From: Nitrospiria bacterium
GTDB taxonomy: Bacteria; Nitrospirota; CAKKRA01; 9FT-COMBO-42-15
DNA length: 26,083 bases
Assembly: GCA_919902475.1 (NCBI GenBank)
Contig: CAKKRA010000101.1
Coordinates: forward strand, 1-26,083
Direction of reading: 5' to 3'
The notes under the pieces: generated by a model
What the model saw: only the letters and a program-made list of their open reading frames with translations
The model's database searches: none
Told to the model about the DNA's origin: nothing
Position numbers and translations under genes: made by a program
Shown here: positions 4,211 through 4,335 of the stretch, piece after piece
Numbering within the stretch: position 1 is the first letter of the stretch
Layout of the letters: each line of letters opens with the position of its first letter

Positions 4211-4335
4211 GACGTCAAAGTAAAAGGCTTTAGATGCAAGGCGGAGCGAGGACTCGCACCGCAGCATACTAAACTGTATGTGAGGATGCGAGGCCGAAGC
4301 GACAACGCAGCAGATAAACCTTTTACGAAGCCGTT
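4211..4335. repeat. Dispersed palindromic element family A, copy 1 (84-bp core 4232-4315 plus imperfect terminal inverted repeats)
   Basis: Core AGATGCAAGGCGG...CAACGCAGCAGAT is 76/84 identical to 19495-19578; closed by GTAAAAGG(c)TTTA / TAAACCTTTTAC (4220-4232 / 4315-4326). Confidence 0.9.

What the first reader, a model, noticed from the sequence alone, without database searches (positions are those of the whole stretch)
4211..4335. 84-bp conserved core closed by completely different inverted repeats in its two copies
Seen: 4232-4315 and 19495-19578 differ at 8 of 84 positions. Six of the eight are the whole loop of the CATAC-N6-GTATG hairpin, and a seventh is the unpaired base beside the CTCGCA/TGCGAG stem. 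The flanks share no sequence, yet each pairs with itself (GTAAAAGG/CCTTTTAC in copy 1; a 21-bp IR in copy 2). Both copies have the same orientation and sit between co-oriented genes inside housekeeping operons, just after a stop codon. Inference: structure is conserved while the closing stem is replaced, as expected for a structured RNA module or an ssDNA substrate of a HUH/RAYT-type transposase. I recall similar multicopy sequences in Geobacter-like genomes with no assigned function, so the element may be known but unexplained.
Basis: partly seen in the sequence, partly recalled or inferred. Interest (0 to 1): 0.72.

Follow-up and report, generated by a model that had tools for sequence, protein, structure and literature searches.

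The report
Stop-codon-docked modular hairpin repeat of Nitrospirota
The two look-alike stretches are copies of a roughly 125-base DNA hairpin that occurs dozens of times per genome in Nitrospirota bacteria, almost always directly after a gene's stop codon and in one orientation; it is an apparently undescribed member of the familiar class of small palindromic intergenic repeats, and what moves it and what it does are still unknown.

Summary
The two 84-bp cores differ at 8 positions, six of them the loop, and each is closed by its own inverted repeat. The flanks are not unique, however. They are two of at least five interchangeable arm sets (A to E) that carry the same core.

The whole element is an imperfect hairpin of about 125-135 nt:
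- The 2.3-Mb genome has about 28 full and about 19 partial copies.
- A covariance model finds diverged relatives in 39 of 151 Nitrospirota genomes.
- Pairing is kept by compensatory changes (97% of cells paired, 19 of 28 pairs covary).
- The core changes far less than the arms or the flanking genes.

In 78 of 91 copies an ORF's stop codon is fused to, or lies inside, one specific end of the element. In another family, 6 of 20 copies abut the 5' end of tRNA or tmRNA genes. Related genomes show empty sites, remnants, and other hairpin repeats at the same sites, so the element is gained and lost.

No target-site duplication, parent IS, integron integrase or Rfam family was found. A RAYT link is not supported.

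Verdict: a new variant of the REP/BIME/ERIC class. This scan has noted similar stop-hugging repeats on other DNA.

The parts
4212..4231 (+). Copy 1, left arm (type A variant, ACGTCAAAGTAAAAGGCTTT). In gene sense this is the 3' arm.
   Evidence: It pairs with 4316-4334. G002 keeps only this arm, with the same locus-specific CCTTTT variant, at the orthologous site.
4232..4315 (+). Copy 1, conserved 84-bp core (imperfect hairpin; apical CATAC-N6-GTATG with loop 4270-4275).
4316..4334 (+). Copy 1, right arm (AAACCTTTTACGAAGCCGT). Its last base overlaps the yicC stop codon (TTA at 4334-4336 is TAA on the minus strand).
19474..19494 (+). Copy 2, left arm (type B, CCAGATTTAGTCAGAGGGGTC).
19495..19578 (+). 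Copy 2, conserved 84-bp core (loop 19533-19538).
19579..19598 (+). Copy 2, right arm (GACCCCTATCACTAAATCTG). The divIVA stop codon (TTA at 19604-19606) lies 5 nt beyond it. G003 keeps only a 13-nt remnant of this arm (read in gene sense, CAGATTTAGTGAT) at the orthologous site.
4334..5212 (-). Upstream gene of copy 1 (YicC-like endoribonuclease). Its stop is fused to the element.
19604..20107 (-). Upstream gene of copy 2 (DivIVA).

Best explanation
The finding is two copies of a dispersed, modular palindromic repeat of about 125-135 nt that is specific to Nitrospirota. It consists of a strongly conserved 84-nt imperfect hairpin (the core) closed by one of several interchangeable pairs of complementary arms. 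It behaves like the REP/BIME/ERIC class of non-autonomous intergenic hairpin repeats. It is gained and lost between related genomes. It inserts with one sharply defined end against a gene boundary, usually directly 3' of a stop triplet and in a fixed orientation. It then decays by hairpin-mediated deletions that leave arm remnants.

Shown: multicopy status; modular arms on one core; a hairpin kept by compensatory changes across the phylum; much stronger conservation of the core than of the arms or neighbouring genes; docking at stop codons with an orientation bias; presence/absence polymorphism.

Inferred: it is mobilised in trans by an unidentified enzyme that reads the conserved core or the hairpin shape rather than the ends. 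Once inserted it is co-transcribed with the upstream gene as a 3'-UTR or intercistronic stem-loop, which may shape mRNA 3' ends, stability or termination of translation.
For: Copy number and distribution:
- 47 BLAST hits in the 2.3-Mb genome: 28 full-length, 13 at contig ends, plus internal-deletion and apex-replaced forms.
- Found in 3 of 3 congeners and 1 of 2 genomes of the sister genus. All named hits are Nitrospirae groundwater MAGs.
- Covariance model R1 finds diverged copies in 39 of 151 genomes of the phylum.

Modularity:
- Arms fall into types A, B, C and D (E in G107).
- The cores of types A and B cannot be told apart: A-A 2.7, B-B 3.8, A-B 3.25 differences per 78 nt.
- The D arms are the hairpin of another abundant repeat. 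Two copies carry a foreign GC-rich hairpin in place of the apex.

Structure: 97.2% of cells are paired, and 19 of 28 pairs have compensatory changes. No shuffle out of 500 reaches the observed value, and slid controls give 26-46% paired.

Constraint: core stems differ at 0-4 of 78 positions between most orthologous pairs (17 of 78 in one pair). Arms differ at 0-9 of 44, the loop at up to 5 of 6, and the flanks are 62-100% identical.

Docking:
- 78 of 91 copies have an ORF of at least 60 codons stopping 10-28 nt before the core on one side. About 6 do so on the mirrored side.
- In diverged families the figures are 30 of 40 against 6 of 40.

Gain and loss:
- Clean empty sites, arm-only remnants, and different hairpin repeats occur at the same post-stop sites. 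This includes both window loci: G001 and G002 for copy 1, and G003, G001 and G004 for copy 2.

Transcription: metatranscriptome contigs run from both flanking genes into the element. This is weak evidence, because they are contigs only.
Against: - No mobilising gene was identified.
- No target-site duplication and no parent IS with the same ends were found.
- The most conserved part is the interior, not the termini. This is unusual for a transposon remnant and suggests a host-level function.
- The strand that folds better is antisense to the adjoining protein genes: G.U 94 against A.C 12, with one G.U pair kept in 49 of 53 sequences. An mRNA stem-loop function therefore does not explain the asymmetry.
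- In family f8, 6 of 20 copies instead abut the 5' end of tRNA or tmRNA genes in the opposite relative orientation. The mRNA 3'-end idea does not explain that.
- The alignment used for covariation was fitted to a model, and the sequences are related.
Confidence: 0.62

Rival explanations
1. REPIN- or PATE-like element. The hairpin is the single-stranded DNA substrate of an HUH Y1 transposase (RAYT or IS200/IS605 TnpA), which inserts it 3' of a short target (TAA, TGA or TAG) without duplication. Selection then leaves only insertions behind real stop codons.
For: - Long imperfect hairpin with conserved mismatches, no TSD, and one sharp end next to a short triplet that differs by arm subfamily.
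- Asymmetry between G.T and A.C fits a single active strand.
- The genome has a Y1 transposase gene.
- Y1 homologues occur in 31 of 39 element-positive genomes against 34 of 112 element-negative ones.
Against: - The own RAYT-like gene is flanked by an unrelated inverted repeat that has about 15 copies of its own.
- No element lies within about 2.5 kb of 12 Y1 genes.
- Five genomes, 95-100% complete and carrying 6-17 copies, lack PF01797 above the cut-off.
- There is no GTAG or CGTC tag.
- The better-folding strand is not the strand that carries the stop triplet at its 5' side.
- The co-occurrence is confounded by phylogeny.
Confidence: 0.2
2. A host cis-acting structured element kept by selection: a processing or termination signal, or a protein-binding site. 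In this reading it is not a selfish mobile element, and it is placed at gene boundaries because it works there.
For: - Core sequence is nearly invariant across loci, species and genera, even in genomes without candidate transposases.
- Strong covariation.
- Precise placement at stop codons and at RNase P sites of tRNA and tmRNA genes.
- T5/A5 tracts flank the core in arm types A, C and D.
Against: - Orthologous sites differ between congeners: filled, empty, remnant, or occupied by another repeat.
- It sits in unrelated operons (yicC-remA, divIVA-yggU, rpsS-rplV, upstream of rbfA).
- The folding strand is antisense in the ORF context.
- The simple terminator scan does not call it.
- No Rfam family matches.
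Confidence: 0.13
3. A classical MITE, that is, a deletion derivative of a DDE-type insertion sequence whose terminal inverted repeats are the arms.
For: - Arms of about 20 nt act as terminal inverted repeats.
- Two filled/empty pairs show a possible 9-10-nt duplication.
- Size and copy number are typical.
Against: - No consistent TSD in about 20 comparisons.
- No longer element is bounded by the same arms.
- At least five unrelated arm sets share one core, and the interior is more conserved than the ends.
Confidence: 0.04
4. attC-like recombination sites of an integron-type system scattered through the chromosome.
For: - Imperfect hairpin directly behind ORFs and in ORF orientation.
- Outer box, unpaired spacer and inner box in the arms, with a variable tip.
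- Type A ends read AAC...GTT(AAAT).
Against: - No integron integrase over the cut-off.
- Copies lie singly in housekeeping operons, not in cassette arrays.
- Arm types B-E lack the core sites, and type C has GTT/AAC reversed.
- Here the tip is conserved and the boxes vary, which is the opposite of attC.
Confidence: 0.01

Closest known systems
REP / BIME / REPIN elements of Proteobacteria (Di Nocera et al. 2013, PMC3733652; Bertels and Rainey 2011, PMC3116915)
   Same: Multicopy extragenic palindromes that lie mostly downstream of coding regions between co-directional or convergent genes. Both have a mosaic or modular build, with variant stems and loops and nested self-complementary loops. Both form one large stem-loop. 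Related genomes differ in copy content.
   Different: The unit is about 125 nt with a complex imperfect interior. There is no GTAG or CGTC tag. The arms are not themselves palindromic REP units. No cognate RAYT flanked by the repeats was found. The interior, not the stems, is the conserved part.
ERIC/IRU (127-bp imperfect palindromes of enterobacteria) and similar transcribed MITE-like repeats (YPAL, Correia, BOX, RUP); named from my own knowledge, not tested here
   Same: Size, imperfect palindrome, location in transcribed intergenic regions of operons, and orientation-dependent effects expected on the mRNA.
   Different: No sequence relation. No TA or other duplication. Docked to the stop codon to within 0-5 nt. 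Interchangeable closing arms. Spread over a whole phylum.
REPs within 15 nt of a stop codon that stall terminating ribosomes in E. coli (Liang et al. 2015, as summarised in PMC12306157)
   Same: A stable hairpin starting within the ribosome footprint of the stop codon. This gives a plausible way for the element to act on translation of the upstream gene.
   Different: In E. coli only about 11% of REPs are that close, according to the RepRanger count in PMC12306157. Here about 85% of copies are. Function has not been tested here.
IS200/IS605-derived PATEs and their TnpA (Quentin et al. 2018, PMC6006769)
   Same: Hairpin-based and strand-specific, with no target duplication. One end abuts a short conserved target-like sequence.
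   Different: A single long hairpin instead of two different subterminal hairpins. No linked TnpA or TnpB. Orientation follows the neighbouring gene.
Stop-hugging palindromic repeat families reported earlier in this scan (Lachnospiraceae, Chitinophagaceae, Pseudonocardiaceae)
   Same: Hairpin repeats of about 100-137 nt docked between a stop codon and the next gene, in gene orientation, gained and lost.
   Different: Other phyla with unrelated sequences. Those notes are unchecked by me.

Membership tests
REPIN / RAYT system | Short GC-rich palindromic REP unit with a conserved GTAG or CGTC end tag | tested here: not met
   The arms carry no such tag and are not self-palindromic. The unit is a single hairpin of about 125 nt.
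REPIN / RAYT system | Cognate RAYT gene flanked by its REPs | tested here: not met
   The own Y1 gene (C48) is flanked by a different inverted repeat. Model R1 finds nothing in 12 Y1 loci with filters off and E up to 1.
REPIN / RAYT system | Repeat population co-occurs with a RAYT in the genome | tested here: inconclusive
   31 of 39 element-positive genomes have a Y1 homologue, against 34 of 112 negative ones. Five genomes that are 95-100% complete and carry 6-17 copies lack PF01797.
IS200/IS605-type PATE | Insertion 3' of a fixed tetra- or pentanucleotide without duplication | tested here: inconclusive
   No TSD was found. One end is fused to TAA or TGA (type A) or to TAG (types C and E). 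tRNA-adjacent copies lack the triplet.
IS200/IS605-type PATE | Orientation set by the replication direction (lagging-strand template) | not testable with these tools
   The assemblies are fragmented. Orientation follows the neighbouring gene in 78 of 91 copies.
MITE of a DDE transposon | Target-site duplication of fixed length | tested here: not met
   About 20 filled/empty comparisons. Only two show a possible 9-10-nt duplication.
MITE of a DDE transposon | Parent IS with the same terminal inverted repeats | tested here: not met
   Nearly all arm matches in the genome adjoin the core or are short remnants. None bounds a longer element. The MAG is fragmented, so absence is not proven.
Integron attC site | Integron integrase, and cassette arrays with R''/R' core sites | tested here: not met
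   TIGR02249 gives only Xer-like hits below the cut-off. Copies are single in housekeeping operons. Only type A shows AAC...GTT.
Intrinsic terminator | GC-rich hairpin directly followed by a U tract | tested here: inconclusive
   A T5 run follows the core in arm types A, C and D but lies inside the outer stem. The simple scan calls no terminator at two copies.
Any Rfam RNA family | Match to a curated covariance model | tested here: not met
   No match at gathering score in the window. None at E up to 10 on copy 1. Diverged copies give only chance miRNA-like hits.
ERIC/BIME-class transcribed intergenic palindrome (a functional class, not a homology family) | Multicopy imperfect palindrome of about 100-150 nt in transcribed intergenic regions | tested here: met
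   Transcription is supported only by position and by RNA contigs.

The most novel reading that the evidence does not exclude
The conserved 84-nt core may be the recognition module of a still unknown, structure-guided system. Such a system would place hairpins exactly at gene boundaries: behind stop codons of protein genes and at the RNase P cleavage site in front of tRNA and tmRNA genes. The closing stem would be free to be rebuilt at each locus. Alternatively, the core may be a phylum-wide host signal read at those boundaries, on the strand opposite to the mRNA.
Probability: 0.15. Interest if true: 0.8.

Novelty: new variant of a known kind. Interest (0 to 1): 0.55.

Why it matters
Small palindromic repeats are common, but how they spread is understood for very few of them, mainly REP/RAYT. 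This family has several unusual properties:
- It is conserved across a whole phylum.
- Its interior, not its ends, is under the strongest constraint.
- It carries exchangeable closing stems.
- It docks to within a few bases of stop codons, and in one lineage to tRNA and tmRNA 5' ends.

This makes it a good case for asking how hairpin repeats choose gene boundaries and whether hosts use them to shape transcripts.

There are practical consequences too. The repeat breaks short-read assemblies of these MAGs: 13 contig ends lie inside it. It also adds or replaces the last codons of some genes, which matters for annotation.

Tried and rejected
- Rfam at gathering and at permissive thresholds: no family.
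- Integron integrase: none over the cut-off.
- RAYT link: the flanks of the own gene and of 11 other Y1 genes carry no element.
- Reverse transcriptase as mobiliser: PF00078 is absent from G107 (99% complete, more than 22 copies) and from G036.
- Target-site duplication (TA, TTAA, TNA, 9 bp): none is consistent.
- ORFs reading through the element: six cases; five read as implausible peptides and the sixth lies next to a copy cut at a contig end, so they were not taken as coding insertions.
- Simple terminator scan: nothing at the element.
- A promoter-like TTGACA-16-AATTAT at 4161-4188 lies inside the start of the remA-like gene and was taken as chance.
- Laying public runs: all runs were contigs that break in the repeat. 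No joint across the whole element was seen, and no ends or strand could be read. The only use made of it was that RNA contigs reach into both arms.
- Literature search: I found no description of this element.

Full report
**Observation.** Window 4232-4315 and 19495-19578 align without gaps and differ at 8 of 84 positions. Six are the whole hexaloop of the CATAC-N6-GTATG tip. One is the bulged base before CTCGCA. One is A/T at 4299. The flanks are unrelated in sequence, yet each pair of flanks is self-complementary. The 125-136-nt stretches fold far better than dinucleotide shuffles (z -6.5 and -8.1 on the plus strand, -4.0 and -6.4 on the minus strand). The neighbouring genes are on the minus strand. 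Copy 1 lies between yicC and a remA-like gene followed by gmk. Copy 2 lies between divIVA and yggU. The arm of copy 1 overlaps the yicC stop codon by one base. The arm of copy 2 ends 5 nt from the divIVA stop codon.

**A multicopy family.**
- The core gives 47 BLAST hits in the 2.3-Mb, 433-contig genome. There are 28 full-length hits, 13 cut by contig ends, two internal-deletion forms (C135, C366) and two with the apex replaced by a foreign CCCCTCCC...GGGAGGGG hairpin (C378, C279).
- It is present in 3 of 3 congeners and in 1 of 2 genomes of the sister genus. BLAST does not find it in 35 other genomes of the phylum.
- Exact-pattern scans of public genomes and metagenomes hit only groundwater and aquifer Nitrospirae MAGs.
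- Genome GC is 41%; core GC is 57%.

**The closing stems are modules, not private sequences.** With flanks printed, the copies fall into arm types.
- Type A: (A)ACGGCAAAGTAAAAAGCTCC ... GGACTTTTTACGAAGCCGT(T). This is the majority type; copy 1 is a variant.
- Type B: CCAGATTTAGCCAGAGGGGTC ... GACCCCTATCGCTAAATCTGG. Copy 2 belongs here.
- Type C: TTCACGCTCAAAAATGTCC ... GGGCGTTTTTCAGCGTGAA.
- Type D: AGGCTGTTCAAAAAGCTCC ... GGACTTTTTCAACAGCCT.

The cores of types A and B cannot be told apart: mean differences per 78 stem positions are A-A 2.7, B-B 3.8 and A-B 3.25. The outer D stem is also the hairpin of another abundant repeat, which carries two GATTACACAGAT units. One locus (C307) has A-like arms around a different interior. 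It reflects a combinatorial, BIME-like build.

**Conservation and structure.** Between most orthologous pairs the core stems differ at 0-4 of 78 positions (17 of 78 in one pair). The arms differ at 0-9 of 44, the loop at up to 5 of 6, and the flanks are 62-100% identical. Paralogues differ on average at 2.9 of 78 stem positions and 2.1 of 6 loop positions.

A covariance model built from 76 copies finds diverged relatives in 39 of 151 sampled genomes of the phylum:
- f1: 4 of 5; f8: 11 of 11; f9: 13 of 18; f6: 3 of 3; f19: 1 of 1.
- None in f2, f10, f11, f16 or f17.

These copies keep three blocks: CATCTGCGGCG, CAACGTAC-loop-GTACG and CCTTGCAYCTG. The inner helices and arms have other sequences that still pair. 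On 53 sequences, 97.2% of cells form standard pairs and 19 of 28 pairs show changes on both sides. No shuffle out of 500 reaches the observed values, and slid controls give 26-46% paired. Two caveats apply: the alignment was fitted to the model, and the sequences are related.

**Strand.** On the window plus strand the pairs include 94 G.U cells against 12 A.C cells. One G.U next to the apical stem is kept in 49 of 53 sequences. The plus strand also folds better in 63 of 65 copies. This better-folding strand is antisense to the protein genes that the element follows.

**Docking at gene boundaries.** Read in gene sense (the reverse complement of the window plus strand), 78 of 91 distinct copies have an ORF of at least 60 codons whose stop lies 10-28 nt before the core, that is, at or inside the 5' arm. 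About 6 do so in the mirrored orientation.
- In type A the stop TAA or TGA is fused to (A)CGGC in 29 copies.
- In 17 copies the arm's own TAA (CGTAAAAAG) is used, which adds the residues ..TAS.
- The usual loop TAA closes the third reading frame.

Among diverged copies from other families, 30 of 40 obey the same rule, against 6 of 40 mirrored. The triplet there is mostly TAG.

An unexpected second context appeared in family f8. Six of 20 copies lie 0-9 nt upstream of the mature 5' end of tRNA-Ser, -Pro, -Gly and -Asp genes or of the tmRNA gene. Here the folding strand is co-directional with the RNA gene, and decayed older copies lie further upstream. I have no single rule that explains both contexts.

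**Gain, loss and turnover.**
- Copy 1 site: G001 has a clean empty site. G002 keeps only the 3' arm, with the same locus-specific CCTTTT variant.
- Copy 2 site: G003 keeps a 13-nt remnant. G001 and G004 carry a different hairpin repeat (TGTCATTGCGAGC...GCTCGCAATGACA) at the same post-stop position.
- Comparing about 60 copies from relatives with the own genome gave about 10 clean empty sites. It gave about 8 remnants, with either both outer stems or one arm retained. Several sites are filled by other repeat families.
- The remnants fit deletion across the base of the inner hairpin.
- Filled sites often carry 10-36 extra, non-conserved bases on the gene-distal side, sometimes with a new Shine-Dalgarno sequence.
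- No duplication of fixed length was seen. Two pairs show a possible 9-10-nt repeat.

**Search for a partner.**
- The genome has one Y1 (RAYT-like) gene. It is flanked by an unrelated inverted repeat that has about 15 copies of its own.
- Y1 homologues are more frequent in element-positive genomes (31 of 39 against 34 of 112), but this follows phylogeny.
- No element lies near 12 Y1 genes.
- Five genomes that are 95-100% complete and carry 6-17 copies lack the domain.
- No integron integrase was found.
- Reverse transcriptase is absent from two element-rich genomes.
- The single IVS-protein gene has other flanks.
- No Rfam family matches.
- I found no description of this element in the literature. 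The closest accounts concern REP families (PMC3733652), REPINs (PMC3116915), HUH enzymes (PMC6006769) and stop-proximal REPs that stall ribosomes (summarised in PMC12306157).

**Interpretation.** The element is best filed, by what it works like, with the REP/BIME/ERIC class: non-autonomous, gained-and-lost, transcribed intergenic hairpins. It is not a demonstrated member of the REPIN/RAYT, IS200/IS605-PATE, DDE-MITE or attC families, because defining features of each were tested and not met or remained open.

Four features set it apart:
- The interior is conserved at the sequence level while the closing stems are exchangeable.
- Placement at gene boundaries is exact.
- The spread is phylum-wide and supported by covariation.
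- The strand asymmetry argues against a simple mRNA stem-loop explanation.

Its function (mRNA 3'-end shaping, an effect on termination of translation, or a DNA-level role) and its mobilising enzyme remain inferences.

Metatranscriptome contigs reach from both neighbouring genes into the arms. This is compatible with co-transcription but is weak evidence.

Earlier notes of this scan describe similar stop-docked hairpin families in other phyla, and one probable relative with the type-C arm (TCACGCTGA) in another genome.

Noticed in passing
L177, L179, L192, L193 (tRNA-Ser, -Pro, -Gly, -Asp) and L187, L190 (tmRNA), position ~200-335 of each locus: In another Nitrospirota family, diverged copies of the element end 0-9 nt before the mature 5' end of tRNA or tmRNA genes, with the folding strand co-directional with the RNA gene. 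L192 and L193 also have decayed partial copies further upstream.
   Followed up: partly
window 20156-20240: A different repeat of about 85 nt gives dozens of matches in all five related genomes, including G004, which lacks the 84-bp core.
   Followed up: no
L140 (G001:C349 ~24650-24790) and L137 (G004:C373 ~610-715): At the site orthologous to copy 2, these genomes carry another hairpin repeat (TGTCATTGCGAGC...GCTCGCAATGACA). In G001 it has a nested CCCCCTTTACTAAAGGGGG hairpin.
   Followed up: partly
G000 contigs C11, C14, C18, C152, C156 and about 20 more: An abundant repeat made of two GATTACACAGAT units followed by the hairpin AGGCTGTTGA-TGAC-TTTTTCAACAGCCT and then TTA or CTA, the stop codon of a gene on the other strand. 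Its hairpin equals the type D arms.
   Followed up: no
G000:C378:590-745 and C279:4450-4600 (L125, L126): Copies in which the apical CATAC-loop-GTATG is replaced by a GC-rich hairpin (CACCCCCACCCTTCC...GGGAGGGGGT). That hairpin also occurs alone at C307:6480-6650 and C23:1080-1375.
   Followed up: partly
G000:C48:10745-11410 (L076 1198-1866, minus strand): A single RAYT-like Y1 transposase gene (222 aa) is flanked by 36-nt inverted repeats containing ATATGGGAAGTG(C/T)CCC, a motif with about 15 copies in the genome. This is probably its own REP family.
   Followed up: partly
G000:C57:700-1316 (L211): A 23S-rRNA-IVS-protein family gene is flanked by inverted arrays of GGGTGTAGGG-like units on a 1.3-kb contig.
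   Followed up: no
window 4335-4400 region and copy 1 distal flank 4180-4211: Next to copy 1 the own genome has a tandem duplication ACCGTATAT-ACCGTATAT that includes the last bases of the arm. It is absent from G002.
   Followed up: no
L050 ~1875 (relative genome): A type B copy sits between rpsS and rplV inside the S10 ribosomal protein operon. The own genome has the empty site (C321:7659-7671).
   Followed up: partly
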